NCBI RefSeq assembly: GCF_009914755.1
Contig: NC_060927.1
Strand: one strand, 5' to 3'
DNA: 64,000 nt
Source of the DNA: the human T2T-CHM13v2.0 reference genome, Homo sapiens
Shown here: positions 16,701 through 41,848 of the stretch, piece by piece
Position numbering within the stretch: position 1 is the stretch's first letter
Layout: each line of letters starts with the position of its first letter
Position numbers and translations under genes: made by a program
The notes under the pieces: generated by a model
What the model saw: only the letters and a program-made list of their open reading frames with translations
The model's database searches: none
What the model was told of the DNA's origin: nothing

Positions 16701-18089
16701 TGAGGGTGAGGAAGTACAAGAAAGACAGCCTTATTAAGAGTACATGTGCTGCAGACTGACAGATTTTGACCTTCACAATGACACAAAGGCAAAGATGAAT
16801 GCAAAAGAGCCTCACTGCTGTTGAACATTGTAACAAGACAATCTTTAGGACCTAAAAATATAAAATAAAAAAGAGAAGGAAAACTGTTTATGAATATAGG
16901 GAGAATGAAAACAAGTCTACTATTGGTTTGAGAGAAGTAGAAACTCAAAGATAGAAAACTTTAAATACTGTTGGTCAAACAAGATATTAAGGATAGAAGA
17001 AGCAAAAGGGCTGATATTGTCTAGTATTGTCTGACAAATTATTATTTCAACCGCTTTTCTCCTTTTGTAAACAGAAATGATTATTATTCTTCAAGAAGAA
17101 ATCCACTAACAGCATCCTTTTCAGGTAACTTTTTAAACTTTTTAAAATTATATTATCATTGGAAATAAACATACCAAGGCTTAAGCACCAAAGTGAAATC
17201 AGCAAAAATAGATAATAATCAGTTAATTGTACTTTAATTTTAATTAATTTTATTTGTCTTCTTTTTATTGTAATTTGTATTCTAAATTAATGCAACAGTG
17301 TTGTGAAAACAAGTTAGGAAGAACCCACCTGATGTCATATACTCTCTAGTGAGCAAACAGCATTGTGCAGTAGAATTACAACCAGAATAACTCAAACGTT
17401 TAGTTTTAAGTAAAAAATATTGTCACATGTGTCTTTTAATTTTTACTAATGAGTTGCAATAGCCTCCAGATCCTCATTAGCAGAAAGTTGTCTCCTTTTT
17501 CCTGTCTTCTCAACACTTTGCCCAAAGCATCTTGTCTCGGGTTTTGTAATACAGTCTCATCTAAAGTGGTTTAATTCTCCTTTCAAATGCCAGAGAAGAG
17601 ACAACACCAGAAAGCCCACTGGCACCCATTGCTTTTCAACCTGCCAGAGTCCTCATTAGCAGCCACCAATTACAATTACTTACAGTAATCTCTCAAAGAT
17701 ATCTTTTTATCTCAAAATTGAAAAAATATATAAATGAAAACCACCAATATAAACTAGATAAATTTAAAACATAACTAAGCTTAATTCAAAATATATATTT
17801 TAGAAATCCATAATGTTTATATTATGAAATTTCTCAAGAATGGGTTTTTTATTTTTCCATTTTTTTCATTTCCAATAATTTCAATAACATTTAAACAGAA
17901 TAATATTAAATTAGACTCTATTAAAATTTGTTAATAAAAATTTTAATTATTGAAAATCATACTAGTTAGAAGCAGGAATTAATTCTGTATAATGCCTGTA
18001 TAGAAAAATGTATGATCATTTTTACTGGCTAAATATATATCAATTATCCTGTCATAAATAAAGCAACTATCTGTAAATTTAAAAGATAT

Positions 18090-18680
18090 CGAAGGAGTTT
18101 AGAAATTGCCATGCCAAAATATGCCACTTCAGTATATTAATTATTTTTCATTGAAAGCAATCTTTCAGTGCTATTATTAAAGTTGCTACTCAATTATTTG
18201 GAAAGAGCTTGCAGGAAGAAAGAGGACTTAAATTCCACACTCACCTTGCAAAGCGAGTCTTTAAAAAAACAAACTTATGACTCTGAGAGTACCTCAAAGT
18301 CCACCCATTTTTCTTGCCAACCACAAACCCTTCCCTATTTGTCTCCAAATGTTCGTAGATAATATAAAAAGCCAGGACATAGGAACAACAATTATCTTGC
18401 ACTTAAATGAAAAAAAAAATCTTAAATAATCCCTTAGAAACCAGAGCCCTTGGAGAATAATGTTTTCCCCTTCTCTCAGATAATTCCCCATTGATTGAGA
18501 TGGTCATCTAATCCTTCACTGTATACCCAGTACCCACCATTAAACTTAAAATGGAGAATTGGGAATTGGAGTTCTTCATTGACAATGATAAAACTTTTTC
18601 TTCCATCAGTTTAGAAATTTTCTATCTGTCACTTCTAATTTCATTCAAGCTGTGGAATTCTCTGGGCAAGCACTTTATTG
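18090..18680 (+). mobile_element. Old ERV1 LTR with a MER34/MER90-type start
   Basis: GAAGGAGTTTAGAAATTGCC..CCAAAATATGCCACTT..ATTATTTT matches the conserved 5' end of this LTR group. The 3' boundary is uncertain. Confidence 0.5.
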
Positions 18681-19159
18681 CCTATATCTCAGGCTAACCC
18701 AATATCCTCAGGACCTCTCCACATCCATGCTGCCTTTTTAGCTTCAGACTTCTCACCAGCAAATATTTTAAATAGGGATTTGTCATGTAAATGTAATGCC
18801 ACTATACAATGTAATGAGGAACACATTTTTATTTCTCTGCCCTCAGACCAAACCTCAAACTTCCTGCTTTTCCTAATAGAGAACCACCTCAATTTAAAAT
18901 ACTCTAAAATCATGCAACCTTACGAGATGTTCCAGTTATTTCTTGGCCTCACATGCAAATGAGGTTGGATTGCTACTGAGTGCAGAACCCATGAACATTG
19001 TTTAAAAATGGAAAATATGTATTAATAGCTTATCTCCAATATTAAAATTCACAAAATAGTTAGAGTAAGCAGTGATATTGTCAACTTCTTCAAATTCATG
19101 TATAATATGTGAATTAATGTTAATTTGATCATATTAATACCAAATGACAGTCCTTAATA

Positions 19160-19395
19160 CAGTACTTATTACATGCTTAATGGTATGCTAAATTCTTTAA
19201 ATGGATTATCTAATGTTACTCACACAACAACTATATCAATTGATGCTACAATTAGCCCACTTTACAGATAAATTGAAATGCAGAGATATTTATACTGTGT
19301 ACCTTGACCAAATTCACAGTCAATAAATTCAATAATCATTCTTATCTCAAAATACTCTGACTAGTCTGCGTAAGCACTTAACTACCAGGCTGCAA
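19160..19395 (-). mobile_element. MIR SINE
   Basis: Antisense MIR core ATTAGCCCACTTTACAGATAAATTGAAATGCAGAGA. Confidence 0.7.
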
Positions 19396-21573
19396 CTTTA
19401 CTGGTAAAAAAAGAGGTGATGTGGATCTACAATTTCATACAGTTATTAAGAATTAATGTGTGTCATGTAACATCTATAAAAACAGCTAAAATATTATATT
19501 TAATTCTACCCTTTTACAAAGTCACTTAAACATTTAATGGTATGTAAATTTAGAAATGTATTCTGCAACAATCTGGAATAAATAATAAATTTTAGGTTAT
19601 TAGCATAAATAATCACAGAACATTTGGTATTGATAATACTTAGAAAGCCCTTCTAAACAAAGGCAAAAGAAATAAAAAAAAGTAACTGCAGTATTTCATC
19701 CATAACCAGATGGTCAGGCATAACAAATCAGGAGTATGTAAATAACAGCATTGCAAGAACACATGAAAAATGACTAGTTACTCGACATCTACTTATACGT
19801 AGATGATCCCCATGTAGACAAGACAAAAATATGTACTTTTTATTGAGACTAGTGCGGTCCCTGGAGTTGCCAGTGTCATTTTAAAGTTCATTTATATAAA
19901 GGTACGTAAACAGATGTGTGAAGAACATCTGGGTCTTGTGCTAAAATCAACTATAAAATATAGTACATATGCAATTCAAATGCACACAAAATAAAATGGG
20001 AAAATATAGTCGACTGTAAGTTACTGAACTCAGCACCATTATTCTCCATCTTGATGCCTACAGCAAGTATTTTTTTTCTATATATTAGCAAACATTCAGT
20101 AAAAAGTAATGTACAGGCTCCAAGTCAACCAATGCCTTTATAACAACAAAGTAACAATTTTAGAAAGAATACATGGGTACATTTTATATGGAGATAAGTT
20201 TAATAGAGATAGCTATATTCATCCCAACAAAAATTTTATCAAAATATTTGCTTCAAAATAAGCATTTTTGATATATTGAGGAGAGATTTTCAGCCAAAAC
20301 AGGTCACCCACAGCTAATGATATGGCTTTTTTCTTTATGCATATATTATGATTGGCAAGCTGCCGATGGGCTTGTGTAAATAATGAACAAAGCAATGAAT
20401 TTGAAAATTGTAAACCACTGGACCAAGCTGCTGTCTTAATGGCAGAATATTAACTTCCACACCTGGTCCTCATTCTGATAATCCTGAAGTATCTTTATCA
20501 GACTTATTTACATTGTTCTTTCTTAATATTTAACACTAGTCATATAAAAGAGAATTATAATACTTTAATAAAAAATAGGAAGATTAGTTTGGCTGAAGAG
20601 TCACTTGCTTCAGTAAAATTCCACTCTTTAAAAATCACTTCAATTCTTGTTCTACTTTAACTGTTTTCGTGAAATCATTTTCTCTCAGCCTTAACCATAC
20701 TACCTATATCTAGTTTATTTCTGCTGGATTATCCTAACATAACATGAACATATTTTAAGTCAGAAGCCATATCGTGTCTTCCTTTTTATCACTTCTAAAA
20801 GCAGTATGTATACAATGAGCATTCAGATTTCTCCTTTAATGGATCACCTGGTTATGTCATAACTTTAGTTATGATAAAGCAATGGTTTAATGTTCTCTGT
20901 AATACCTTCCATGTACTTTTAAACCTTAATCCCTTTTGTAGTTGTCTTTTCTAAGACAAATTATGCCACCCAATGTAATTGTACTTTTAAAAATTAATTT
21001 TAAAACAGGTGTAACTGCATTTTGCCAATATTTATTAAATCTAGGAGTTATGACTTTGCCATAAAGTTACATTTCTTCCTGTTTTCTATTAAAAAATCTA
21101 AATATTAAATAAATTAATTTTTATAGTTTTTGTATTATTTTAAACATATCTCCCGTCATTGTCATTTAACCTTTATTATATTCTTGACCTTTTCCCTCTT
21201 ATGTATAATAAAACTTTAGGTACATTTGACATTTGTAGACTATTTGGTTTAGCTTTTGTTATAAATGTTCACAATAGATTTCAAACTTTTTATTTACTTT
21301 TAAGTAAACTTAAAGGACAAATCATTTTTAATTAGAGAGACATATTTCAGATATTAATCTTATCCATCTCCTTCTTTTAACTTGTAACAAGAATGCCCCA
21401 CATATGCCATAGCTGCTGTCACTGTAACTTTCTATGCCCACGTTCGGTGCTGCTGACCATCCATCATACTCCCAGATTAGGGCCAAATTTGGCCTTAAAT
21501 TCTTTTCTGTAATGTGACTGAGAAGAGATAATCAATGAATATTATTTTTTATTTTAAACTGATGTTTATAAAA

Positions 21574-21743
21574 CAGTTTTCTAAGGAATCATCTGGAAAG
21601 CTTAGACATAAAATACATTTCTAGTCAGCTCCCTAGAAGTTTTGATTGAATATGAATGGGAATCTGTATTTTAATAAAAATCTCTAATTTATTGAAGAAG
21701 TCAGATCAACAATTATTTAAGGTCCACACTTAGGAATAGCTGG
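21574..21743. mobile_element. MER5-like hAT-Charlie relic
   Basis: GAATCATCTGGAAAGCTT..GGGAATCTGTATTTTAATAA..CCACACTTAGGAATAGCTG. Confidence 0.5.
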
Positions 21744-21846
21744 TCTGAAACATTCAAATTAATGATCATGTCTTTTTATTTTACTTATTTGTTGATATAT
21801 TTATACACTCATTTGGTTTATTATTTGGGTTTATTCATTCAAGTAA

Positions 21847-22258
21847 TGTTACAGGCTAAATGTTTATGTCCCTCCAAAATTCTCATGTTGAAATCCTAAC
21901 CCCAGTGTGACTGTATTTGGAGATGGGGCCTCAAAGGAAGTAATGAATGTTACATGAGGTCATAAGGGTGGAGCCCTCATCCTACAGGGTTAGTTTACTT
22001 ACAGAAAGAGACAGTAAAGAGCTTGCTCACTCCCTCTCTTCTCACTCACACACGCTGGAGGAAGGGCCACATGAGAACAAAGTGAGAAGGTTGCCTTTTG
22101 CTACCCAGAAAGAGAACATTCACCAGAAATCAACTATGCTGCCACCTTGATCTTGAACTTCTAGCCTCCAAACTGTTAGAAAATACCTTTCCATTGCTTA
22201 ACTCATTCAGTCAGATGTATACCACATTTTGTTAGGGTGGCCTGAGCAAACTAATATA
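21847..22258 (+). mobile_element. MLT1A1-like MaLR solo LTR
   Basis: TGTTACAGGCTAAATGTTTATGTCCCTCCAAAATTC...GCAAACTAATATA, with a perfect 5-bp TSD AGTAA (21842-21846 / 22259-22263). Confidence 0.88.
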
Positions 22259-22433
22259 AGTAACAAATTCAGTAGTAATTTCTTTCTATTATTATTTTTT
22301 TTTAATTACCCTATTTATATTAAAGCATCTTATTTCCAAAAAAAAAAAATACATTTTTCCTTCATTTGGTGGTCTGGAAAGATGAAACATATGAAACAAA
22401 ATAAAATAAAATAAAATGGAAAAAAAATGTGTC

Positions 22434-23740
<1,307 letters not shown>

Positions 23741-24499
23741 TAAAGCAAACCAGCATGGAACAAAGAAAACTGCAATTCAGCATTCTCTCCAGGTAAAGGT
23801 TAATTTTCTCCTCTGATTCTTCACAGTAAAATAGAATGTGATAATCAAGTACTAGTTTGGGAATCATAAAAATGGGGGATAATGCTATTTATTCTTCTGA
23901 TAAATATATACCACAATGCAAGTCTGTCAACATTTTCAGGTTAAATATTTTCTGTAAATGAAAAGAGCCTATTAAAATAATCATGGCTGAGGTTCTTTCC
24001 TGGACAAAACTCTGTTATACTCTTTATTATTGTACTTTGCTTCTTTGTTGTCCATAAGCAAAGAAAATCTAAAAGCATGGTAGGCTGTTGGAGTCTTTAA
24101 TATATTAAAGAGGTCTGAGTCAATCAAGTACAATATGCATTGTTTATCCTTGCATCTTGTATAAAACATGCTACTTAAAGCCTTACATTATCCAGCTTTA
24201 TCCCAGAAAAGATTGGCTCTACTAACTCATTCAGGCTTCTGTTCCTCTGCAATACCTAGATCATCTCTGATTATGATATTTCATCAATATACACCCAATT
24301 TTTGAAGCTGTATTTGCAAAAGTCATTACAATGTAGCTGAGTTTAGAAAGTGAGATTTTAATTTTCAAAATTGATGTTAGAGTAAAATGAAGAATCACAT
24401 GCTTTCTCTTAAAATGTCACATTGTGTCAAATAAAATAATGTTTTTTTAATTAAAGGATATTATTGCTATAAGAGATAATAGACAAATGTCTCTTACAG

Positions 24500-25195
24500 A
24501 TGAACCCCCTTAACTTGGGTGAAGATAATCTCCCCTCAAAAAGCTGGAACCATTCCACCCTCTCTTGAATATGTGCTCTGGTTAGTGACTGGCTTTGAAA
24601 GAGTAGAGTACAAAAAGGGGATGGGGTAAAAGGTTACCACGGTTCCAGGGGAGAAAGCTGGCAAACACTGCCTTCGACAGGTAATTGTTAGCATCATTAA
24701 TGATGAGCCCTGTTGATAACATGTATTTCCATATAATGTGCTAAATTTAGTACTTGACCCCATAGTCTTCCTCCCAAACCACATAACCCATATCTAATTA
24801 CAAGAAAAAAAGATCAGAAAAATCCCAACTGAGTGACATTGCACAAAATACCTGACCAGTACAAATTAAAACTGTCAAGGTCATCAAGAACAAGGAAATT
24901 CTGAGAAACTGGTATAGCCAAGAGGAGCCTAAGGAGACATAATGATGAAAAATAATGTGTCCTAGAAGGAATTCTGGAACATAATGAAAACAGGAGGAAA
25001 AACTAGCAAAACTGTTGTAGAAAATGGCATATGGTTAATAGCAACACACCAAATTTGGCTACTTAGTTGAGACATAGGTACCAGAAAAGTTATATAAGAT
25101 GTTGAAAAAATGAGAAACTGGTTAGGAAAATATGGGAACTTTGTACTGTCTTTGCAACTTTTCTATAAATCTAAACCTATTCTTAAAAGGTTATG
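24500..25195 (+). mobile_element. L1MC/L1MD 3'UTR fragment
   Basis: AAAACTGTCAAGGTCATCAAGAACAAGGAAA..GGAACTTTGTACTGTCTTTGCAACTTTTCTATAAATCTAAA. Confidence 0.8.
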
Positions 25196-25734
25196 AAAAT
25201 CATTAGTAGGTTAGGATTGTAATTATTTTATAGATTCATTCACTCAGCAAATATTGAATACTTGCATTTACACACACACATATAAATTTGATTCTTCTCT
25301 TAAAACCCATTGTTTATTGATATTAAGCCTATATTTTATAGTAGTAATTAATTGGATATAATAATGGTTTTTATTTTAGATAGGACAAGGGCCGTCTAGT
25401 TCACCAGAGTTCCCCCCAATCCATTTATCTCATTTGTAACCTATAATCTGAGTAAAGAGACAATATGTTAAAATAAAAGTTGTAATAAAAAATAAATAAA
25501 GCCAAGTATCATAAAAACCATAAAAGAGTGATGTCATGTGAATAAATAAATACTAACTTCTTCACATTTCAATATTCTGATTGTGTTGAATTTATTCTTC
25601 AAAGAAAGTTCATTCTCTGATATGAATAAAAGGGTGGCAGGAAGATACATGGGAATAGAGCAGGATAGACTAAGATGATAACAAGTAGAAGAGCTTGGGA
25701 ATTAGGAAGCTAGCTACAGCTAAGTCATAATAAT

Positions 25735-26402
<668 letters not shown>

Positions 26403-26629
26403 CTATTTAAAGATGAAAATACTATGGAGATATATGCGCACCCAGTGTCCTACTGGTTAACCCAGAAAATGTAACGATTTGACCTTTGATTATTCAATGA
26501 GTTTACTTTTGATTGTGATTAAAGAAAAAGAAAGCATACCTACCTACAGTGTTAATCATTTGATGTTGATTCTGGAGTACTCTGGTCAATGGCTACCTCT
26601 ATATACTTCCATTTTTAAAAATTACCTCA

Positions 26630-26800
26630 TATTTTTGGCATTGTGCTAATGGTTTTGTTTGATTCATAGTGACATTTACGGGGCCAGCATTATTATTTCC
26701 ATTTGAGAACTGAGAAAAATAAGAATGAGAGAGTTTAAATGACCTGATGAACTTGCATTTTAGAAATAAGCTTATTGTGTTCTTCACTCTACAACCTTGG
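26630..26800 (-). mobile_element. MIR fragment
   Basis: ATTATTATTTCCATTTGAGAACTGAGAAAAATAAG..AGAGAGTTTAAATGACCTG. Confidence 0.55.
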
Positions 26801-27317
26801 CTCTTTCAATCATTCAATCCAGATCTGTTTTAACACATCAAATATTTGCTAGTCACTGGAAAATGTGTTTGGGCTGCAAGATAAGACCAAAAAATGAATG
26901 AAACAAGGATATTTTTACTATAATTCAAATTATAATCTGCTGTTGTATTCTAATAATTTTAATAATCATATATATTGGGAGTTTTTTTACCACATGAATT
27001 TCCAAATTCAGATATTATAGAAATGACAATCTACTTTTAAATCCAAGACAGGATCAGATCATCTTTTCCGTGGTTGCGTCTCCTTTAGCATACAAATCTG
27101 GGTTAGTTGGCCTGTGATTGCTCAGAGATAATTGAGAAATTATAGTAATGATTTTTCAGTCAGGTAAAGAAATCACCATTTTGTTGTAAGTGAACTGGCA
27201 TTCTTTCATTTCTTATGTCATCTAGTGTATGAACAAAAAATAATATATTTGGGCAAATGTAAATACTAGTTTTGGAAAATATGTATTGAAACTACAACCT
27301 GACAACAATTTGTACCG

Positions 27318-27870
27318 TGGAAGAGGAAAAACTTATCCTCTTAGGTTCTGTAGCTGGGTCTAAAAACTAAACTAATATAGGACAGATTAAGAAGAGAAAA
27401 TAATACAAATTTTATGGAATATTTTTAAGTGCTCAGCAGAGACATCACAAGAAAAATGGAAAACAAAAGAAGCAGTTAAGACTGATAACATATATTTTTA
27501 ACAACAACAAGAAAAAAAATGGTAACTTTGTGTGGGGGTGTGAAAAGCCACATGGATTTGGTCTAGAAGCAGTAAATTCTGGGAAAGAAACCAGAAAATA
27601 TATGGAAAAACTAATGAAAGATAAAGGTTGTTTTAGTAGGTTTGTTTGTACAGATACATTTGTGTATCTATTCCTAGTGTCTGGTGATGAGAATGTGCTC
27701 TTCCTGATACAGGGTGAGCATTTTCCTAGTGGGAAATTTTATGACCTGCTTTTAGCTAGAGGGGTCAGAGACCCCTTTCCTGCATCAGCTATTTTTCAAA
27801 TGACTTCTCCTCAAAATAATCAATATTCCTAAGTATCATATTGTTTTGGGTCGTGTTCTGAACTCCTTCA
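27318..27870 (-). mobile_element. 3' LTR of a MER34-family provirus
   Basis: Minus strand reads TGAAGGAGTTCAGAAC..GATTATTTTGAG...TTTTCCTCTTCCA. Immediately preceded by the purine-rich tract AGACAGGGGAGG (27871-27882). Confidence 0.85.
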
Positions 27871-27900
27871 CCTCCCCTGTCTGAAACTTCCCAAGAAATT

Positions 27901-29147
27901 TTACGAATTAAAAAACTGAGTTGGTGGATGTGGAAAGGAGAAATAGGTTGGTAGCAGAGTAGTTAAAGATCCACAAAGGGACAAGAGAACACAGATTAGT
28001 ATAAGAATAAGTAAGCGGAAAAAGACCACAACAAAGCACACGTCTCCAAATCCCATTAAAGCAAACTCCCAAACTTGAGAATGGATAAATTCAATAAATT
28101 GGTTGAGCCTCATTAATCTGACAGAGTGTTTATCTTCTTTTTTTAAAAAGTGTACATTAGACACTCTTTATCCTGTCCAATTCACTTGGAAGCAGCATTT
28201 TTTGACAATGATTGCACAATTTTCCCTCCTGCTTGAGGGGCAGTCAGTGTACCCAGGACATGACAATTTTGAAGTACAAGAGCATTCAACTTAAATTCTG
28301 ATTAAAATGCTGCCAACGTTCTCATAGTGGTGTGAAATCTTGTTCTAATATCATGGAAATATTTCGGATTTTTTTTCACACCATAAATTCTAAAAGTTAG
28401 GAGTAAAGAAATAACGTCCTCAACACTGAAAATTACTTAGAGTGGTGATATACAAGAGAGTTTTCTGTTCTGTCTCATGTATTACGTTTATATGGCAATA
28501 ACTTATAAACAAAGGAGCCCAGGCTTGTAATTTGACTAGCATTGAAGGTGGAGTACCAGATGAAGGAAGGAACCAAGTACCCAATTCTACATTGTTCTGA
28601 CCATTTATGTGGGAGTGCTTTATATTCCTTGTCACCACAGAAGATAAAATGACCAGTGTTGTTCATGGGCAAGGTCAGAGTGGAGCCTGCAATCCCACAG
28701 TCCAGTGTGCTTCAACCATGAATACAATATTGCCTTGCTATGTCAGCTAGGAAGGGTCTTGTACCATCCATGTCTGTTTTAAATGCAAAGAAAAAAATTT
28801 CCTTCTAATATTTTTACCTGAGCAAAGGACAATCCTTGAGCTTCCACAGTGGTTTTACTTCAGTCACTTAACTCACTTGAAGAGGTAGACTGACATTGTT
28901 TTCCTGATTGTGGATGCGATTCCCTTTTATTCATCTTCTGTAGTTGATCCACAAAGTGCTCACATTGACAGGAGCAAAAGCTAACTCAGGTTGTTTCTAG
29001 ATGTTGATGTAACCAGCAATCTTATTGACTAGCTAGCATGGCCAGGGGTTGAAAAAGTGGGGTAAGGCAGTGTCAAGTCTGTGCCTGACTTGTTGAGAAG
29101 ACAGTAAGGGTTAACAGAAGTAAGGCAAAGTTTGAAAGTGAGCCCAT
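27901..29147 (-). pseudogene. Retroviral env pseudogene, MER34 type, closely similar to HEMO (ERVMER34-1). Stops, frameshifts and an SU deletion
   Basis: Hand translation gives MGSLSNFALLLLTLTVF (ATG 29147), DCWL, QPELAFAP, EAQGLSFAQVKILEGNF, FIFCGDKEYKALPHKWSEQCRIGYLVPS..NASQIT, IRNISMILEQDF, ISD-like LQNCHVLGTLTA, CX6CC motif CAIIVKKCC (28192-28218) and a hydrophobic TM segment. Confidence 0.88.
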
Positions 29148-29373
29148 ATTGAAGGATCAGAGGAAGAGTAGGATAGATTGAAAAAAAGCAATCTTCATTT
29201 GGTCTTTTAATAAGTGGGCAACAAAGGAAGGTTTTATTTAAACCAAATAAATAAATACTTTTTGTTTTTTAGGATGGAGAGAGACTTCAAAAGAGGGAAA
29301 TTTCTTGATCTGTGATTTTAGGAATAGCAGTCTGCTTTTTTATTTTTTTGACTTCAGAGCCTGGGAATAGCTA

Positions 29374-29781
29374 TGAGTAGTTGGCCATTCTTGCATTGCT
29401 ATAAAGAAATACTCATGTCTGGGCTTAATTTGTCTCACATTTCTGCATGCTGTACCGAAGTGTGGTGCCAGTGTCTGCTTCCGGTGAGGGCCTCAGGAAG
29501 CTTACATTCATGACAGAAGGTGAAGAGGGAGCAGGTGTGTCACACAGCAAGTGTAGGAGCAAGAGAGAAGAGGGAGGAAGTGCCATATTATTTTAAATGG
29601 CTGGATCTTACATGAACTACCAGAACAAGAACTCACGCATTGCTAAAGAGATGACGCTAAGCCATTCATGCGGGATCCACCTCCATGATCCAAATACCTC
29701 CCCCCAGGCCCCACAACCAGCATTGGGAATTGCATTTCAAGATGAGATTTGGAGAGGACAAATAGCCAAACAACCATATAA
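29374..29781 (-). mobile_element. MSTB-like MaLR LTR inserted near the pol/env boundary
   Basis: GGCCATTCTTGCATTGCTATAAAGAAATAC..GAGGGCCTCAGGAAGCTTAC..GAGATTTGGAGAGGACAAA. Confidence 0.85.
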
Positions 29782-29784
29782 CTG

Positions 29785-32655
29785 TGGAAATTCCTATTTT
29801 GAGCTCACCTAAAAGGATGGTCTTCCAATTGCCCTGGTAGTAATTACCTTGGTCTAGTTTAGTGTGGCTTTTATGAAACCAGGAGAATTTTTCTCTCATT
29901 TTGACGGCAGTGTTGGAGTCAGCAGTCCTTTGCAAAGCCCTTTTCAGTGTTTTCGGTACTGCGCAAGGTGACAATGTATGCTTTCTTCTAAAACCCTTTA
30001 GGCACGGCCAACCTCCTGCCTTAAAAGAATGGCAAGTTGATGGAGGCCACACATTTTTTTTCACCTGTTGATAATGTTTCAAATATACCTGTTAGCTCTT
30101 ATATATAGCTAGCCATAGCATCGAATTGTTCACTTAAGTCCCCATCGTGTTCTCTCAATTCAGGAATGGAGGTTTAGAGATGCCAATAGGCATAGGGAGA
30201 CTCAAAATTATTTTACAAGGGGTTTATCTGTGTGTGCTATTTGGAATATTACAGATTTTTATAAAGGCCAGGAGTATGGCTTCTGGCTATTTAAGTGTAT
30301 TTGAGTCTAGATTTTTATATTCCATTTGCCCTGGTGTTTGAGGATAGTACAGAATACCCAGTGTTAATGAGAACCCCAAAGTTATTGTAAGAAAGTAGTT
30401 TATTTGTGCCATAAAATGAAATATCTGATCTGATTCAATCCACGAAGAAATGCCCAAACGAGGAATAATCTAAGTTAATTGTCTTTACTATTGTAGTAGA
30501 ATTAGTATGAGTAATCACCAAACAGTGAGAGGAACCTAAATATGGTGGTAAATCTATAAAATCCATCTGGAGTGGTACTAGGAGCAGCGTAGACCTTGGA
30601 GGATTCTCTGAGGTTTGCTAATTTCCTTGAGAAATGTGAGATTTATAAGTAATGCTTCGGAAATAACTTGGTCATGAATGTCATGATTTTGTGGATGTCA
30701 GGGCAGAACCAATTGTCTTTTAGTCCTTTGTATCCATTTGTGTTTTTCATACTGGTACAGTTGTTTGATAATTAATAAAATTAACCAGGGTTAAAGGCAG
30801 GCTTATAACTTGGGTGGAGAAAGTTTAAGGAAGTCTGTTTTCAATTTCATATTTAGTAGCCTTGTCGGTTCTGCTGCTCCTTAGAGATACAGTATTAGTC
30901 TTCTTAGTGTAGGCAGGTCAGTGAACAACATAGCAATTTTAGTAGGAAGGTCGCATGCAATCAGGCAGCAATTATATGCCCTTTGGCAGTAAGAGTACCT
31001 TCAGAGGTTAAGAATTTGTGGAATTTCCAGACTGTGGCACCACATGACAGACTCCCAAAGCATATCTGGAGTCATTGTAAATAGTGGCAGCTTTGCCCTT
31101 TGGCAGTGTGCAATCTTTAATAAGAGATATGAGGTCAACAGCTCTAGCTGATTTTACAGTGGGCAAAGAGTATGCCTCAAGTGTTTCATGGGAGGAAACT
31201 ATGGTGTAGGCAGTTATGATGTTCCCCTACAAATTCCATTTACAGAAGCCATCACAAAATACAAATAAGTCTGGGTTGTCTAAGAGCTCCTCTGGTGGCT
31301 TTAAAATCATTTCTATAGATGCAAGGTAATCATGTAGAATGAAGTGTAGCTAACCATCATCAGAGAAAGATAGCAAAGTAACTGCATTTAAAGAGCTACA
31401 GTGACATAAGATGATGGAGATATTGGCTAATAGGGCCTATTCATCAGTGATCTGCTGCCATGTAGAGAGTTACTATGTCTTATGAACTTAGAGCAAACAC
31501 AGCATGGAGAACATAGAGGTGAATGGAAGTGTCTCATGTAAGAATACTGGCTTTGTCAATTAGGGCAGCACCTGCTGCTATCACACACAGGCATGGGGCA
31601 TGCCTGATGCCACGGGTCCAATTGACATGAGAAATATGATACAGGACACGTATGAGAGGCAAAAGTTTTGCCCTGCAACAATCACATGAGTTTTATGACA
31701 ATATAGGTGAAAAGGTTTGTCAAAATTAAGTAAACCACGATGCGGGCAATGCTAATTTTAAGACTTCAATGGATGTAATATGTCCCCAAAGGCCAGGGAA
31801 TGAGGTGTCAAATAGTATCTGGGAGGAAGGCATATAAGCATTTAGCAAAGGCTGAAAAATTACTAATCCATTGATAACAACAGCCGGGTGCTCCTAGAAA
31901 TTTTTGTAACTGCTTTTTTTGTTTGTTTTGGAGAGACAGATGGACAAAATTGACTCAAAGCATTTTGTGGGGAGGTTTTGAGTGCTTGCAGATATATCAT
32001 AGTCTAAGTAGGTTATAATCATTTACACACATTGAAATTTATATTAGGAGATTTTATGGCTTTTTTCAGTTAGAACCTTTGGGAGAATGAGGGAGCCTAA
32101 AAGAGCACCCTGCTTAGTTTGGTTATAAAATAAGAGGTCAATAATATGCTGAAAAAGAACGGAGCTTTGGGTAAAGGTTACAGAGTCTGCGTTAGCTTTA
32201 AGGATTTGGAGAAATATTGAAGGGGACTTGCAATATCCCTGGAGCATCCAAGTCCATGTTAATTGTCTTTTTCTAAACATAAATGCAAAGAGGAATCACT
32301 AGTCAGGTGCAATAGAATTGAAAAGACACCTGAGCAGGGGTCAATTACTGTAAAGCCGACTGTGTTAGCAGAAATTGAGGTAAGAATAGTGGTTGGATTA
32401 GGCACTATGAGAAATTACAAAAGGGTTTATAATTCTTGGATGTTGTGCAATCAATAGATTTGGTTTTCTTCCAAATAAAACCTTTTTTTTTTCTACTGAC
32501 AAGATTAGGGTATTGCAAAGTGAGTGAGTAAAGAGCAGCCTACCGTAAGACAGTCTATTATACATTCACTTCCTCATTATGTGTCTCAAGAAAGGGAGTA
32601 TTGCTCTATTTATGAGAAAGGTTTATTGCATATTCTTACTGTGACCCACTTACAA
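29785..32655 (-). pseudogene. Degraded gammaretrovirus-like pol (RT, RNase H, integrase) of the MER34-type provirus
   Basis: RT: CNTLILSV, TVIDPCSGVFSI, TWTWMLQGYCKSPSIF..QHIIDLL. RNase H: FVFCDG..SARAVDL..IYNDSRYALG. Integrase: QMDFIDLP, IIPRLGISSWIESDQ, YYPQTPGQME, TAVK..SWFHKSH. Confidence 0.9.
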
Positions 32656-32810
32656 AATATCACAAGAAATTTGTGATGTCATGTTCTCAATTTTAAAAAT
32701 ATCATTTAAAAGTCTCTTAATGAAATGTCTAAAGCTATATTTATAACAAAGTGTTTTCAAAATTTTGAAAGATATATTTAATAACATTTTGAATTATAAA
32801 GTGAGGTCCA

Positions 32811-33268
32811 GGTCGGGCGCAGTGGCTCATGCCTGTAATCCCAGCACGTTGGGAGGCTGAGGCGGGCGTATCACGAGATCAGGAGATCGAGACATCCTGG
32901 CTAACAGGGTGAAACCCCATCTCTACTAAACAATACAAAAAATTAGCCAGGCATGGTGGCGGGCACCTGTAATCCCAGAACTTTGGGAGGCCGAGGGGGG
33001 CGGATCACGAGGTCAGGAGATCGAGACCATCCTGGCTAACACGGTGAAAACCCGTCTCTACTAAAAATACAAAAAATTAGCTGGGTGTGGTGGCGGGTGC
33101 CTGTAGTCCCAGCTGAGGCAGGCTGAGGCAGGAGAATGGCGTGAACCCGGGAGGCGGGGCTTGCAGTGAGCTGATATTGTGCCACTGCACTCCAGCCTGG
33201 GCGACAGAGTGAGACTCCATCTCAAATAATAATAATAATAATAATAATAATATAAATAAAAAGTAAAA
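32811..33268 (+). mobile_element. Trimeric AluY (left-left-right arms) with a (TAA)n tail
   Basis: Two left arms and two A5TACA6-like linkers. One TSD ATAAAGTGAGGTC (32796-32808 / 33269-33281) flanks the whole unit. Confidence 0.92.
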
Positions 33269-33629
33269 ATAAAGTGAGGTCAAATTGTAGACACTCTCAT
33301 TCATAGGAAATTTACAAATGGTGGATCGTTATCTATACAGCCATAGTGTATTTAATCAATACTCTTATACACATTTCTATGGGCATGTATGTTTAATATA
33401 AATTACTTGATGCTTCCAAGTTGTTTATCATAGTGGTTATGCCAATGCCTAAGAGTTTTGGTTTCTTAACATCCTTGCCAATATTTGCTTTTTAATAGTT
33501 TGCTAATTTTATGTACATAAAATGACAATTAGTTTCAATATGAATTATCCTGATGATTTGTAAGCTTGAGCAGCTTTCCCCACATTTATTCACCACACAT
33601 GTATTATATTCTCAGGATTGTTATTCTAT

Positions 33630-33857
33630 TGGTTAATAGTAGAAACTCTATAGTCATACACACAAGGTATAGACCCCCAGTTGCACATTAGCTTTATAAA
33701 CTTGAGGATATCACTTAAATTCTCTGTTCTTAAGTTTCTTCATCTGTAAAATGAGGATAGTAATAATGCCTGTATCACAGGGATATTCTGAGGGCATAAA
33801 GCATTTAGAATAGAGTCTAGCACAAAATCACCACTTAAAATGTTAGTTATGATTATA
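33630..33857 (+). mobile_element. MIR SINE
   Basis: MIR core GTTTCTTCATCTGTAAAATGAGGATAGTAATAATGCCT. Confidence 0.85.
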
Positions 33858-34957
33858 TTCCTACACGTTGGAAGAGCTTTTTATTTTCAATTAATAACAC
33901 TTCTTATACAAGTTAATGTATAAGTCAATAAAGCATTCTTAGTTATAGAAAGTGAAAACATTTTGTCATATTCTGTGGACTTTATATTTACATGTTACAT
34001 AGTTTCTATTCTGTAGAAAAAATTTCTAATTTAGTCATATATCGGCTTTTGTGCTTAATTTCAGAATTTTTTTTTCAAAATTTCAGGGTGTAATGAGAAT
34101 TTCATGTTTTTCTGCTAAAAGTGAAAAAAATGATTTATTTTTTGTCCAGATTATGTAAACGAGATAAGGTATTTACAAATAAATGGCAAAGTATTCTTGA
34201 ATTATTATAAAAACTCGAACTTTCTCAAAATTTTGCAATGTATTTTCTGCAATGTAGGTAATTTATAGTATAAGCATGGGTATGTGTTCTGCCCATTCTG
34301 TCCACTAGTCAATTTATCTCTTACTTTGCTGTTACCATGTTATTGACTTGACAATTACTATCTAGTTAAGAGTCACCGTCTCTGATCACATCATTGCTTT
34401 CTTTCTTCAAAACTATCTTGAGTATTCTTGGACCTTTGATGTTCCATGTCAGTTTTCAAATTGGCTTCCAATTCCTACTGCCAAATTTACATAGGATTGG
34501 TAATTTCATTAGCTTAGATGTTATAGATTTTTAGGGAAAAAAAAGACACCATTATGATATTATCTTCCCTTCCATAACCAAAGAATTTTCTCCTTGTATT
34601 CAATTGTTTATTCTCCAGCAATATTTAGTAATATTCATAGAATTTATGTGCAGTATTTTTGGTTAAGTTTACTCATAGTTTATTTCTAATTTTGTTGGTA
34701 ATACACATGGATTTTTAAAATGTTGTTCTTGCACCTGATAGCTTTATGTAAAACTGCAGACTGTGAGGAAATCATATTATATGTAAGAAAATAATTTTCA
34801 CTTTTTCCCCACATTGTATATCCTTTCCCCCTCTTTTTCTTGATGTATTACAATGCACTATAAGCCTAGTGTAATTTTAGGTATAGTTGGTAATAAAAGC
34901 CACAGGTCTGGTCTGAAAAGCATAAAATACTCCAGATAGAATTTAATATATGTACTT

Positions 34958-35097
34958 TGTGAGGGTTTAAAAATTACCTGTTGAGTACAGTGTTCACTTC
35001 TTGGGTGATGGGTACACTAAAAGCCCAGACTTTACCATTAAGTAATATACGTATGTAAGAAATCTGCACATATACCCTGTAAATCAATAAAAAAAAT
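34958..35097 (+). mobile_element. Short L1PB/L1MA 3' end with A tail
   Basis: GGGTGATGGGTACACTAAAAGCCCAGACTT..AATCTGCACATATACCC..AATAAAAAAAA. Confidence 0.8.
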
Positions 35098-35169
35098 AAG
35101 AACAGGAGAGTTTTTTTTAACATATTGGAAATTCTCAAGTAAAGAAGGAAAAAGGAGCCTGTCTAGAAG

Positions 35170-35590
35170 GTGCAAAAAAATAATTAGATAACACCTAGAT
35201 ATCAGAAACTTCTACTGGTCCAGGACTAAAATTCAAGAGGCTGCACCTGCAGTTGCTCTGTTGGAGACAGTTATAGTCTGTTCTGGATTTACCATAAAAT
35301 TATTTTCTTAACTAGGGCTTGAATTGATACCTGTGCTTAGAATGCTAGGGTCTGAAATAACCTTCTCCTTGCTGTTCATAACTACCACAAACAGTTGCTA
35401 GTAGCCATGAGGAGGAGAAATTTCCTCTTTTCTTCCTGCCTTCTGATTTCCAACGACTGTTTCCATTAGGCAGAACTTAGGAAGTTCACTGGCAAGGGAT
35501 TCTGGGAACTGTAATTTGTAGGTTTGAAACCCAGTAATACAGAGAAAAGAATATAGATAAGCTCCTTAAACTGAATGACAAATGATAATT
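35170..35590 (-). mobile_element. LTR33-like ERVL LTR fragment
   Basis: CCATTAGGCAGAAC..CTGGCAAGGGATTCTGGGAACTGTAATTTG..ACAGAGAAAAGAATATAGA. Confidence 0.5.
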
Positions 35591-37645
35591 TATTTATGAC
35601 TTTGTTTTCAGGGTAAGGATATTCTCTTCTCTTCTGAGTTTATTATAAATCTCTTTAAGTCATGGATACATGGTGAATTGTAACAAACACTGACTTTTTT
35701 TCTATAAATCTTCAGATAATCAATTTTATTTTAAATTAATGTCCATATGATACATTACTTGAACAGATATTCTGATGTTACAACATCTTTTAACTCCTTA
35801 AATAAATTCACTTGGTAATGATGTATCATTTTTATACAATACTTTATTTGATTTGTCAATATTTTAATTCGTAATTGTGCATATAGTTCACAATTGAGAC
35901 TAGTATATAAGTTATTTTTCTTTCACCAGTTTTCTCCCATGTGTGGATTAACAATTTGCTAGCATGCTAAAATATATTGGGATTCTTCCCCTATGTTATT
36001 ATTCTCTCAAGTAGTTTTATCATACAGAAATATATATTTATTAAATTTTATGAATGGTATTTAAATTCTATGATCTCCATTATAATCAGTGAAATATTTG
36101 ATGACCAAGTTAATTTCTTTAATCTTTTTGTTGTTTTACATATATATTATATGTGAGTTTAAATATATGATATGTGTGTGTATATGTGATATGTAATGAC
36201 ATACCATATATATACACACATACCTATGTTATATATGTGCACATAGAGATATATAATTTCCTCTTTAAAATGTCTTCTAATGCCTTGTCTATCATATTTA
36301 TCAAAGAAAGAGGTTTTGTTTGTTGATCCAATCTGTTCCTTTTGTGATGTATTCTATATTATTTATTTATGCTATATTTTTATTATCACTGACATCTACT
36401 ATATTTAGTTTTACTTTGTTGTCTTTGTTACTATTTTTAGTATATTCTTAGTTTATTATTTGTATTTCTTGTGTGTCTATGTGTGCTATTTAGAGCATTT
36501 AAAGCTCCAAATTGTCTGCTTAATACTGATTTAGGTATGTCCCACGATTTTTGATATGTAGCATATCCACTACCTTCCATCTAAACCCAGAAGTAATGCA
36601 GCATTACATTTTAATTTTTTAAGTATAGGGTTACCATCCCCTACTATATTTGTTGTTTAATTAATTTAAATGCAATATAGAAAATGTGACCTGTATTATA
36701 TATTCTCTTTAATATTTTATTTTATGATCGTTTGAAAATATATTTCTGGTTCTTATTTAAAATACCTCATGTGTTGCTTGTTTACATATGTATATATATT
36801 TATCTATGGTGAATGTATATTCCAATTTTCCTTCAATAATGACTTATTGAGTAAACTCCTGTATTCAAAATGTTTAGGTTCCTTTTGAAGGGATATTTTG
36901 TACCCTATGTTATTATATTTTGAGGTTGGTTTCCAATCTCCCTCTGTCTCTTCTCTCACCCCTGCCCCTCTATGATTTTGCATTTTCCCTACAACCCCAG
37001 CTTTCATCTCTTTCATGTACCCCGGACATTACATCTTCCAGTTGGAGATCCATAGCAGAGGATAGTATGGCTCAGCTTCTGGCCAGGAGCCTGTTTCTGT
37101 TTCTCCTCATTTGGCCCAGCAGTTTGCTAGAGGCTGTAGCTTTGCCTCTTTCAATAAGCAGCTAAGAGTTATCCGTTAATCAGACTCTGAGACTTAAGCC
37201 TGGCTTCAGGTCACTCATCTTGAATGAAACACATTTTTGTCCCATTGCTTATCTCTGATCCTAGAGTCCTCTCCTAGTTTCAATGCTATTGTCCCCATCG
37301 TATGTCTGTCTGTCTTATTTCATTTGTTCATGTTTGTGTTTTTGTTTGCTTTTTTTCTAGTCCACATTGATATTTGAATTATTTGTTCATCTAACCATTC
37401 ATTGTTATTTATGTAGCTATCGACCAAATAGGTCATTAGGGTTTTAACTTACTGTATTTTTGCACCAGAATTTTTTTGTATTATTTTTATAGTATTGTTT
37501 TTCTGCCACATTTTAGTATACTGGATATTGCGAATCATGATAATGTCATTCTGGAGAGATTCATCTACATATAAAAAGCTTTGGATTTAAAGTTTGAATG
37601 ATTAACCTGGAATTAAAATAATGCCATGATCAAAATCTAAATTCT

Positions 37646-37885
37646 TTTTTTTTTTTTTTGAGATAGGGTCTCCCGTTGCCCAGTGATTCTCCTACCTCAG
37701 CCTCCCTAGTAGTGGAACTACAGGTGTTCACTACCACAGCCAGCTAGTGTTTTGTATTTTTCTTTAGAAGAGATGGGGTTTCACCATGTTTCCCAGGCTG
37801 GTCTTGAACTCCTGGACTCAAGCAACCTGCCTGCCTCGGCCTCCCAACATGCTGGGATTACAGGTGTAAGCCACCGTTCCTAGCC
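37646..37885 (-). mobile_element. AluJ with about 60 bp deleted from the right arm
   Basis: GTTGCCCAG joins directly to TGATTCTCC. TSD AAAATCTAAATTCT / AAAATATAAATTCT. Confidence 0.88.
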
Positions 37886-38116
37886 CTAAAATATAAATTC
37901 TAAGATATTATGTTATTTTAGATAGCCTTGAATATAGGGTTTCTTTGTTATAATTCTCAACTTACATCTTGGAGCGATCCTTACATAAATATCTAAACTG
38001 TATTTTTGCCCTGATGATTTTCATATTTTGAAAAATGTCTGCATTACTTTCTTCTTATCAACTATATGTAATTTTGAAATTTATCATAAGGTCCTAGAAA
38101 AATTTAGTGAGAATGT

Positions 38117-38470
38117 GAGGAATTCACTAGAATCTAAAGAATATCTTTTTACATATATATACTTTCTATATATATATACTTTATATATATTATAATATAT
38201 AAATATACATATATAATACATATGTAATATATATTACATATATTATATATTATATATCTCTATATATAGTTTATATATAATATATAAAGTATACATAGAC
38301 AGTATATATATATAAAGTATATATAGAGAGAGTATATATATATTCTTTAGATTTGAGTGAATTCCTCTCTCTATATATACTTTATATATATTATATATGA
38401 TATATATATTTAATATATAATATATATAATATATACATACTTTATATATATATTATATATATACTTTCTT
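38117..38470. repeat. AT-rich low-complexity block containing an about 250-bp imperfect palindrome
   Basis: 38117-38144 is the reverse complement of 38340-38367 (26 of 28 nt match), enclosing (TA)n-rich arms. Confidence 0.88.
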
Positions 38471-40339
38471 ATGTCTCTAATTGTCCAAATATAGTGACAC
38501 CACACTCTTTCATACATAATAATTTTAATCCTAAAGATTATAGTAGTTGTCTTTATTCTCATATTAAATATCATAGTTGTAAAAGCCATTGTCATGAGGT
38601 TTATAGTGACTTGAGGTCCGTTTGAAGATCCTTAGATAAGAAATGATGCTGAATGTGAACTTGGCTCATTGATTACAAGGGATATGAAAAATGTGAATTT
38701 AAACGTGTCTTAAAGACAAATGTGGAATTTTGAACTTTCTTAAGTTAAAGCATCAATTGACCAGTAGAATTCATTGCACAAAATTAATATACTACTTTTG
38801 AAGCCCTGCTTTGATTACCTTGGATACTACCCTACAACTTATATTATCAGCTTACTTCTTGCTATGTATCAAAAATGGACAGAATGTCACAAGTTCTATT
38901 ATATTTTTGAAAATGAAAAAAAATCTTTGAATTGAAAATGAAAAATATTGATGATACAACTTTAACCCTATTTTTTGTTTCAGTAAGTCAGCATTTCCTT
39001 TAGTAAACAAGAATAAATTCCTGTTCTGCAAATCTTAATGAATATGTATTTTAACTAGATTTAAAATCCTGACCAGTATGTAAACAAAAGATGTTATCAT
39101 TACATAAATGGTTACATAAGTAGTGTTGATTATGCTGGGTTAGCATCATAAATTCTTCCTTTCATTTTGCTTGTATGTGAATGTGTGACAAGTTTCAAAG
39201 AGTACCAGATCAGAGAGGATTTTAAAATCTTCATTTTTACCCAGAATTAACAGATAGTGTGAACTAGAGCGTGTGTCTATTTTCTCATCTAAGAAACGAA
39301 CAACTACATTAAATATTACTAGTCTCTTTCTGCTTTATATGTTCTATGTGTGTCTAAGCCTACTTCTGAATAAGAAAAAAAAAGATTCAAAACAATGACG
39401 TATTGGTGAATGCAATATATTTTCATAGAAGCCCAGCGTAGAGAAGTATGAAATGATGAAATAAAGAGGGGAATGGATTTTTAACTATCTCTTTAAATTA
39501 GCAGTAAGACTCTAGATATAACAATGGTTTTAGAAATCAGAATATAATATTGCAGAATGCACTTCTGACTGGAAGGCACATGACAGCAACAGTTGTGAAT
39601 AAAATTCCTACACAGTCTACTACATTACAAAAGAATAACAGAAAATACTGCTAGAATTGCAAAATCTGTCTGCTCTAGTTAGAATTACAACCTAATTTAA
39701 ATGAGTCCAGTGAACCTACAGAAGAAAGAATCCATTTTCATCAAAGTGGATTCAGCTTGTGGCATGCTGTGTGTGGTTGTGGCCGGAGTCAGAGCCCACT
39801 GGGACTGGCAGCCCCTGCCATCAGTGTCTGTCATGGAGCAGACATTTCTCTCTTTATATTATCAACCAGCTCCAGGCTCCTGGGCCGGTCAGGCCGCAGT
39901 GAAACGCTGACAGTGAACTGTTGCACAGAGAGACCTGTAAGAGGCTCTCACTCTGTATTTAAAGAGCCCAGGAGCTGCAGGAAGACAGTGTTCCTGCCTC
40001 TTCTAAGTGGCATGTATGAAGAGACATCTGATTTAGCAGCTCTGACAGCTCACAGGAAACTTGACCCAGACAGAAACAGAATGTGAAATAACAGGAGCTC
40101 TCATCCTTGAATTTAAAAAAGAGGAGTGGGGGACTAAGAATTCTGAGTGTCCCTGGTCGCAAGGCTTTGTTTGGTGAGTTAAATGCACACTTTCATTTAA
40201 CTTACCAAAACACCATGTATGCTTATAGAATTTAAATATTGTATCATTAATCCTGTAGTAAATAGGTAGTTGTGAAGAAAAAAAAAATCTTTTATCATAG
40301 GAACTGAAGCAGCAATTAAAACACAGCAATAAAAACTGT

Positions 40340-40560
40340 ACCCTAGAATTCTGCGACTTAGTTTCAAAATTTGTTTTGACCACTTAGCTGCGATGAGAAC
40401 TTTGACAAGTTTTTAAAATTTTCTGTTCCTCTGTTTTCTTCATCTGAAAATATGCAGATAATGCTCATATTTTGTTGTAAGAGTCAAATAAGATCCTCTT
40501 AATTGCTTAGTCAATTATCTAATGTTTAGTAATGGCTCAGAAAATATTTAAAGTTATTTT
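40340..40560 (+). mobile_element. MIR SINE
   Basis: CTCTGTTTTCTTCATCTGAAAATATGCAGATAAT..GTTGTAAGAGTCAAATAAGAT. Confidence 0.7.
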
Positions 40561-41729: not shown

Positions 41730-41848
41730 CACTAGAATGAAGATCTGAAAAGGAAGAGATTATCTCCTCTTTAATGCTGTATCCCAAAGCCTAGAAGAAC
41801 CAGAGACTTACTAGCTAATCAATAAATATTGCTGAGTAAATAAATGAC
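41730..41848 (+). mobile_element. L2 3' end
   Basis: GCTGTATCCCAAAGCCTAGAA..TCAATAAATATTGCTGAGTAAATAAATGA. Confidence 0.75.

What the first reader, a model, noticed from the sequence alone, without database searches (positions are those of the whole stretch)
27901..29147. Fossil env that looks like a close paralog of the domesticated HEMO (ERVMER34-1) gene
Seen: the minus strand translates, across stops and frameshifts, into an env layout running from signal peptide to TM domain: MGSLSNFALLLLTLTVF...DCWL..QPELAFAPVNVST...EAQGLSFAQVKILEGNF...GHFIFCGDKEYKALPHKWSEQCRIGYLVPS..NASQITSL...IRNISMILEQDF...CAIIVKKCC. Recalled: HEMO reads MGSLSNYALLQLTLTAF..NCWLC..QPELVFVP..EAQGLSFAQVRLLEGNF..GLFFLCGNGVYKGFPPKWSGRCGLGYLVPS..NASQITNL. 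Inference: this is a non-coding sister copy from the same MER34 lineage. It is largely hidden from the ORF track and could serve as an outgroup for reconstructing the pre-domestication envelope.
Basis: partly seen in the sequence, partly recalled or inferred. Interest (0 to 1): 0.8.

Follow-up and report, generated by a model that had tools for sequence, protein, structure and literature searches.

The report
Decayed MER34 retroviral envelope, not HEMO's sister
This is the broken envelope gene of a roughly 100-million-year-old MER34 endogenous retrovirus, one of about twenty dead relatives of the human HEMO gene; it is an ordinary genomic fossil, not a close sister copy of HEMO.

Summary
The minus strand from 29147 to 27820 is a decayed retroviral env that matches HEMO (ERVMER34-1) from the start codon to the stop position: tblastn E 1e-22 and 4e-25, and 64% nt identity over 1329 nt.

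- **How it is broken:** 11 stops at HEMO sense codons, about 14 frameshifting gaps, and a private 381-nt loss in SU.
- **Not a close paralog:** at least 22 loci in the genome carry this env type. HEMO ranks 5th of 19 among the window copy's neighbours. In ML trees the window copy sits in a strongly supported 11-copy subclade that excludes HEMO. An AU test rejects window+HEMO as sisters (p = 2e-6).
- **Context:** the env is part of one provirus. On the minus strand lie pol (RNase H at 31032-31271), env and a 3' LTR (about 27322-27870). The protease-side part lies 13.6 kb away on the plus strand (18091-19030). The break points abut, so a roughly 13.6-kb inversion most likely split the provirus.

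The published literature already describes MER34 as a multicopy family in which only HEMO still codes. Verdict: an ordinary, already known kind of relic with no sign of function.

The parts
27820..29147 (-). Decayed MER34-type env, from the start codon to the position of HEMO's stop codon
   Evidence: tblastn with HEMO, E 1e-22 and 4e-25. nt alignment to the HEMO CDS. 11 stops at HEMO sense codons and 40.8% aa identity over 414 codons.
29097..29147 (-). Signal-peptide start (17 codons; 13 match HEMO), followed by a stop at HEMO codon 25
28706..28725 (-). Junction of a private 381-nt loss in SU (HEMO aa ~147-278)
   Evidence: In this interval the window holds 15 nt, against 366-429 nt in 15 of the 19 other copies.
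28192..28218 (-). C-X6-CC motif of the TM subunit, kept
   Evidence: aligned to the HEMO C-X6-CC
27976..28041 (-). Hydrophobic membrane anchor, aligned to HEMO's anchor
27322..27870 (-). 3' LTR, about 550 bp. Its start overlaps the last ~17 env codons. The 3' end is only approximate.
   Evidence: At least 39 other genomic matches at 66-76% end at 27338-27322. 39 matches begin around 27874-27816, most near 27871.
29422..29771 (.). Unrelated ~350-bp interspersed repeat inserted between pol and env
   Evidence: 31 of the 45 non-self matches cover only this stretch, at 74-79% identity. It is absent at this place in the chr2:162.54 Mb copy.
29785..32636 (-). pol remnant (part of RT, RNase H, integrase region)
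   Evidence: 65% over 1415 nt to the chr2:162.54 Mb copy. 70% over 1972 nt to the chrX:42.86 Mb provirus, L041 4884-6809. Other MER34 proviruses.
31032..31271 (-). RNase H domain remnant
   Evidence: Pfam PF00075, E 0.0052, 17.4 bits (below the 25.8 cut-off), on the frame read with X at stops. The homologous part of L041 scores 31 bits.
18158..19030 (+). 5' part of the same provirus (protease-side region), now on the opposite strand
   Evidence: L041 3894-4156 and 4311-4915 match here at 64% and 71%. Good alignment ends near L041 4880, and the minus-strand piece starts at L041 4884. The protease assignment is by eye from the frames; Pfam gave no match.
18091..18159 (+). Stub of the 5' LTR (first ~70 nt)
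   Evidence: Matches the LTR starts of L041 (966-1018, 83%) and L040 (1815-1883, 74%)
19031..32636 (.). Inferred inverted interval (about 13.6 kb), with one break point inside the provirus
   Evidence: Inference from the abutting break points and opposite strands of the two pieces

Best explanation
The stretch is the dead envelope gene of an ERVMER34 (MER34-int type) provirus that entered the germ line of an early placental mammal. It has decayed neutrally since then and does nothing now.

Shown:
- It is homologous to HEMO over the whole env.
- It belongs to a family of at least 22 env loci.
- It lies in a subclade that excludes HEMO.
- It carries many stops and frameshifts and a private 381-nt SU loss.
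- It is flanked by homologous pol on one side and by an LTR with many solo copies on the other.

Inferred:
- The provirus was inserted in plus orientation.
- It lost most of its 5' LTR and gag.
- A roughly 13.6-kb inversion then cut it near the protease/RT border. That inversion turned pol-env-3'LTR, together with 8.3 kb of former 3' flank, onto the minus strand.
- A ~350-bp repeat landed between pol and env.
For: - **Homology:**
- **Family size:** 22 loci with SU-level matches among the 81 matches. This is a lower bound, because only 77 of 708 candidates were scored.
- **Tree:** the 11-copy subclade has support 100/100, 99.8/98 with RY coding and 100/98 with L-INS-i. AU tests: window+HEMO rejected at p = 2e-6; window+chr6 not rejected at p = 0.37.
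- **Decay:** 11 stops; 7 frameshifting gaps in the window and 7 in HEMO within the env; K2P 0.52 to HEMO. The terminal branch is 0.24 or 0.22 changes per site, against a median of 0.17, so there is no sign of constraint.
- **Provirus context:**
- **Split and inversion:**. No other L041 gag-protease homology was found anywhere in the 64-kb window.
- **Literature (passages read):** PMC12704712 and PMC8978518 state that MER34 is a multicopy family about 100 My old in which all gag, pol and env copies except HEMO are defective.
Against: - No RepeatMasker or Dfam run was possible, so the names MER34-int and MER34 LTR come from HEMO homology and the literature, not from a library match.
- Pfam gave nothing for the env pieces. 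HEMO itself scores only 24.5 bits on TLV_coat.
- RNase H scores below Pfam's cut-off, and RT, integrase and protease are read by eye or by nt homology only.
- The inversion is inferred from one assembly. Two independent truncated insertions cannot be formally excluded. No target-site duplication could be checked because the LTR ends are too decayed.
- The age rests on branch lengths and on a substitution rate that I recalled.
Confidence: 0.93

Rival explanations
1. It is a close sister paralog of HEMO. That would mean either a duplicate of the HEMO locus, or the copy that shares HEMO's last common ancestor to the exclusion of the other MER34 envs.
For: HEMO is the best non-self hit of one 78-aa window ORF. 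13 of the first 17 residues are identical.
Against: - By summed local blastn score, HEMO is 5th of 19 among the window's neighbours and the window is 8th of 19 among HEMO's.
- A 100/100 split separates them.
- The AU test rejects the pair, p = 2e-6.
- Grouping the window with HEMO, chr2:208.85 and chr8:89.84 is also disfavoured, p = 0.03.
Confidence: 0.02
2. The two proviral pieces (18091-19030 on plus, 27322-32636 on minus) are two independent truncated MER34 insertions, not one provirus split by an inversion.
For: Old ERV fragments are common. No target-site duplication or outgroup genome was available to prove a single insertion.
Against: - The pieces end and begin within about 5-30 nt of the same point of the chrX reference provirus, L041 ~4880-4915 versus 4884.
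- They do not otherwise overlap in content.
- They lie 13.6 kb apart on opposite strands, which is exactly what a single inversion would produce.
Confidence: 0.1
3. The relic has been co-opted, for example as a regulatory element or as part of the lncRNA LOC105377183.
For: It lies within the span of that lncRNA (hub annotation). The 5' LTR stub is about 1 kb downstream of exon 1.
Against: - The env is antisense to the lncRNA and lies inside intron 1. It overlaps no exon, and RefSeq lists no functional element there (hub annotation).
- Its terminal branch is longer than the median of the dead copies.
- There is no Rfam match in 26500-33000.
Confidence: 0.03

Closest known systems
HEMO / ERVMER34-1 (human chr4; 563-aa ORF, L002:862-2553:-)
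   Same: - Same env family and a collinear alignment from the start codon to the stop position.
- Shared signal-peptide start, CWL motif, SU C-terminal block, C-X6-CC motif and membrane anchor.
- The same short, non-hydrophobic stretch after the furin-site position.
   Different: - HEMO is intact and under selection (literature). The window copy has 11 stops and about 14 frameshifts, and lacks aa ~147-278.
- The two lie in different subclades.
- Identity is 64% nt and about 41-46% aa.
Dead MER34 env copy at chr6:4.95 Mb (L039)
   Same: It is the nearest relative of the window copy: 71.2-71.3% identity over 1196-1299 nt, reaching into the LTR. It is sister to the window copy in the L-INS-i tree (82/80), and that pairing is not rejected by the AU test (p = 0.37).
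   Different: It keeps the SU interval that the window copy lost (372 nt against 15 nt). The sister status is not resolved in the first tree (65/38).
Repbase MER34-int and MER34B-int (HEPSI group of ERV1), as listed in PMC5753468 (passages read)
   Same: These are the two named internal families. The env copies here fall into two deep clades: A, with HEMO and the window copy (14 rows), and B (6 rows).
   Different: Which clade carries which Repbase name was not testable here. No repeat library was available.

Membership tests
ERVMER34 env (HEMO family) | Significant sequence homology to HEMO across both SU and TM, not only generic TM motifs | tested here: met
   E 1e-22 for aa 1-132 and E 4e-25 for aa 283-400. 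The nt alignment runs to the stop position.
ERVMER34 env (HEMO family) | Groups with HEMO-type copies, away from other env families | tested here: met
   Clade A has 100/100 support. Other env families in the genome match HEMO only over aa ~293-533, at 25-31%.
ERVMER34 provirus | Env flanked by homologous pol upstream and by an LTR with solo copies downstream | tested here: met
   RNase H at E 0.005.
ERVMER34 provirus | Match to the Repbase/Dfam MER34-int and MER34 LTR models | not testable with these tools
   No RepeatMasker, Dfam or Repbase library was available.
Sister/close paralog of HEMO | Forms a clade with HEMO to the exclusion of the other copies | tested here: not met
   AU p = 2e-6. 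A 100/100 split separates them.
Coding (domesticated) env gene | Open reading frame of env length | tested here: not met
   20-23 stops per frame and a longest open run of 88 codons. From the ATG the frame closes after 24 codons.
Gamma-type retroviral Env (Pfam TLV_coat, PF00429) | Match to the Pfam model | tested here: inconclusive
   The window pieces and the X-read frames gave no match. Intact HEMO itself scores only 24.5 bits against a cut-off of 22.5.
Gamma-type retroviral Env | CWLC motif in SU, canonical furin site and C-X6-CC in TM | tested here: inconclusive
   The window reads C-W-L-H in place of C-W-L-C. At HEMO 352-355 it reads R-N-T-stop. C-X6-CC is present. The motif definitions are recalled, apart from the furin consensus, which comes from PMC12704712.

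The most novel reading that the evidence does not exclude
The env fossil and the protease-side piece 13.6 kb away may be the two halves of one provirus cut by an ancient inversion. If so, this locus is a dated structural marker: its presence, absence and orientation across mammals would time both the insertion and the inversion. The dead copies together also show that HEMO's short, non-hydrophobic stretch in place of a fusion peptide is a family-wide layout and not a deletion special to HEMO.
Probability: 0.6. Interest if true: 0.25.

Novelty: already known. Interest (0 to 1): 0.12.

Why it matters
It matters little. The literature already describes MER34 as a multicopy family whose only coding member is HEMO, and this locus is one of the dead members.

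Its modest uses:
- **Paralog comparison for HEMO.** At the position of HEMO C352 the window copy keeps an arginine codon. This agrees with the published inference from HEMO orthologues that arginine was ancestral there (PMC12704712, passages read).
- **An example of a provirus split by an inversion.**
- **Subclade structure.** The result that the human MER34 envs fall into distinct subclades tells anyone choosing outgroups for HEMO to prefer the chr2:208.85 Mb and chr8:89.84 Mb copies, not this one.

Tried and rejected
- **Pfam on minus-strand ORFs:** 53 stop-to-stop ORFs (26602-40412) gave no retroviral domain.
- **Pfam on X-read frames:** 33200-42600 gave nothing, and 17900-19100 and 31900-32700 gave nothing.
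- **Search for a 5' LTR:** self-blast of 26350-27950 against 29200-50000 gave nothing better than E 0.002. The missing 5' part was later found on the other strand.
- **HEMO-anchored codon pile-up from tblastn:** abandoned. tblastn reads through frameshifts in the wrong frame, so the identities were depressed.
- **Rfam on 26500-33000:** no match.
- **Papers and earlier findings:** the 2017 HEMO paper (PMC5559007 / 10.1073/pnas.1702204114) is not held. What it says about the other MER34 env copies, or about a family consensus, could therefore not be checked.
- **Flanks of the other copies:** Only three long flanks were obtained, so the proviral context of most other copies was not examined.
- **Rows left out of the trees:** chr2:110.73 Mb, a near-identical duplicate of chr2:110.48 Mb, and chr7:125.24 Mb, where there is only a 67-aa match and no sequence was fetched.
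- **Target-site duplication test for the inversion:** not attempted, because the LTR ends cannot be placed to the base.

Full report
**1. Observation.**
The frame that starts at the ATG at 29147 reads the 17-residue signal-peptide start and closes after 24 codons.

I did not rely on recall for HEMO. I searched the window's own genome with the 78-aa ORF 28475-28711(-). The best non-self hit was an open 590-codon frame on contig C4.

tblastn of that ORF against the window:

| HEMO aa | Window | Identity | E-value |
|---|---|---|---|
| 1-132 | 29147-28767 | 44% | 1e-22 |
| 283-400 | 28693-28331 | 46% | 4e-25 |
| 427-467 | 28245-28126 | 27% | joint with the row above |

No other place in the window scores below E 0.09.

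**2. Anatomy of the env relic.**
A nucleotide alignment with the HEMO CDS runs from the start codon (29147) to the position of HEMO's stop (27822-27820).
- **Identity:** local blastn gives 64.0% over 1329 nt. K2P distance is 0.52.
- **Stops:** of 414 HEMO codons that face an ungapped window triplet, 169 (40.8%) encode the same residue and 11 are stop triplets.
- **Frameshifts:** the alignment has 7 frameshifting gaps in the window and 7 in HEMO within the env. The exact number depends on the alignment.
- **SU loss:** HEMO nt 441-834 (aa ~147-278) are represented by only 13-15 nt, a loss of 381 nt. In the same interval, 15 of the 19 other copies hold 366-429 nt, so the loss is private to this copy.
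- **Still recognisable:** the signal-peptide start; C-W-L followed by H where HEMO has C; the SU C-terminal block; C-X6-CC (28218-28192); and a hydrophobic anchor (28041-27976).
- **Furin-site position:** at the place of HEMO's C-T-Q-G (aa 352-355) the window reads R-N-T-stop.

**3. What it belongs to.**
A whole-genome search with HEMO gave 81 matches (77 of 708 candidates scored, so counts are lower bounds). 22 loci have matches in SU, including HEMO and the window. The remainder match only aa ~293-533 at 25-31% and are other env families.

I aligned 20 of the 22 loci. I left out the near-identical duplicate at chr2:110.73 Mb and the 67-aa fragment at chr7:125.24 Mb.

Local blastn:
- The window's best neighbours are chr6:4.95 Mb (71.3% over 1299 nt), chr14:64.67 Mb (67.4%), chr11:102.49 Mb and chr8:60.21 Mb. 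HEMO comes 5th of 19.
- HEMO's best neighbours are chr2:208.85 Mb (70.2%) and chr8:89.84 Mb (66.3%). The window is 8th of 19.

The ML tree (1678 columns, GTR+F+G4) shows:
- two deep clades, A (14 rows, with HEMO and the window) and B (6 rows), each at 100/100;
- inside A, an 11-row subclade (100/100) that holds the window copy and excludes HEMO, chr2:208.85 and chr8:89.84.

The subclade split persists with transversion-only coding (99.8/98), which guards against parallel CpG decay. It also persists with an L-INS-i alignment (100/98).

AU tests:
- window+HEMO as one clade: rejected, p = 2e-6.
- window with the three HEMO-side rows: p = 0.03.
- window+chr6:4.95: not rejected, p = 0.37.

Hence the copy belongs to the same family but not to HEMO's immediate lineage.

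**4. Proviral context.**
- **3' LTR.** Downstream of env, dozens of genomic loci match a ~550-bp unit. Matches start near 27871 and end at 27338-27322 (at least 39 loci at 66-76%). This is the 3' LTR. Its first ~50 nt overlap the end of env.
- **pol.** Upstream, 29785-31112 matches the stretch just 5' of env in the chr2:162.54 Mb copy (65%) and the flank of HEMO itself. 30727-32636 matches the chrX:42.86 Mb provirus (L041 4884-6809, 70% over 1972 nt) and other MER34 proviruses. Pfam finds a weak RNase H at 31032-31271 (E 0.005, below the cut-off), and the homologous part of L041 scores 31 bits. An RT-like motif near 32230 was seen by eye only.
- **Inserted repeat.** 29422-29771 is an unrelated high-copy repeat of ~350 bp. 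31 of the 45 non-self matches cover only this stretch.

**5. The missing 5' half and an inversion.**
No gag or protease homology lies beyond 32636. Instead, L041 3894-4156 and 4311-4915 match 18158-18416 and 18432-19030 on the plus strand (64% and 71%). In addition, 18091-18159 matches the first ~70 nt of the LTRs of L041 and L040.

Good alignment of the plus-strand piece ends near L041 4880, and the minus-strand piece begins at L041 4884. So there are two pieces with abutting break points, no overlap in content, on opposite strands and 13.6 kb apart.

The simplest history is:
- one provirus inserted in plus orientation;
- loss of most of the 5' LTR and gag;
- an inversion of about 19031-32636 that carried pol-env-3'LTR and 8.3 kb of former 3' flank.

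This is an inference from one assembly. Two independent insertions remain possible, at about 10%.

**6. Function and age.**
The env lies antisense inside intron 1 of a predicted lncRNA and overlaps no exon or RefSeq functional element (hub annotation).

Its terminal branch is 0.24 or 0.22 changes per site, longer than the median of 0.17, so nothing suggests constraint. With a recalled neutral rate of about 2.2e-9 per site per year, this gives roughly 100 My. That agrees with the ~100 My published for the family (PMC12704712 and PMC8978518, passages read).

I therefore take it to be a non-functional fossil.

**7. Comparison with what is known.**
- The two papers by the HEMO group state that MER34 entered as a multicopy family, and that all gag, pol and env copies became defective except HEMO.
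- Repbase lists MER34-int and MER34B-int (PMC5753468, passages read). Clades A and B may correspond to these two, but that could not be tested here.
- The 2025 paper infers, from 39 HEMO orthologues, an ancestral R-T-Q-R furin site that was lost through R352C 30-45 Mya. It also says that reconstructing the 100-My envelope may be out of reach.
- As read today, none of the 12 copies that align over this site shows R-X-K/R-R. The window copy keeps the arginine codon at the first position.
- The stretch between that site and the heptad region is 84 nt in HEMO. It is 84-95 nt in 14 of the 19 other copies, 61-78 nt in three, and missing in two. HEMO's lack of a long hydrophobic fusion peptide is therefore a layout shared by the family, not a deletion special to HEMO.
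- The 2017 paper, which may already say some of this, could not be read.

**8. Verdict.**
This is an ordinary, already known kind of element, and interest is low.

Noticed in passing
window 18091-19030 (+) and 27322-32636 (-): These are two halves of one MER34 provirus on opposite strands with abutting break points. I infer an inversion of about 13.6 kb (19031-32636).
   Followed up: partly
window 29422-29771: An unrelated interspersed repeat of ~350 bp sits between pol and env. It has many genomic copies at 74-79% identity. The same repeat family lies inside the env of the chr8:60.21 Mb copy.
   Followed up: partly
L011 (chr14:64.67 Mb) and L036/L038 (chr14:64.44 Mb): Two MER34 env copies in inverted orientation, 0.2 Mb apart, differ by only ~0.06 changes per site, so they are a later segmental duplicate. 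One of them has since lost the SU interval (65 nt against 380 nt).
   Followed up: no
env copies: The human MER34-type envs fall into two deep clades, 14 and 6 of the 20 rows, separated by ~0.63 changes per site. These may be Repbase MER34-int and MER34B-int. The names were not testable here.
   Followed up: partly
HEMO nt 1066-1149 and the homologous stretch in the copies (window ~28470-28380): The stretch after the furin-site position has nearly the same length in HEMO and in 14 of the 19 other copies (84-95 nt). The absence of a long hydrophobic fusion peptide is therefore family-wide and not HEMO-specific.
   Followed up: partly
L041 (chrX:42.86 Mb): This is a more complete MER34 provirus. 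It has an LTR (953-1514), a weak Gag_p30 match, RT-connection and RNase H matches, and an internal GRKEGRKE-type simple repeat.
   Followed up: no
window 38150-38460: A TA-rich simple repeat that reads as Y-I runs in translation. It is similar to a repeat inside the chr15:22.45 Mb copy.
   Followed up: no
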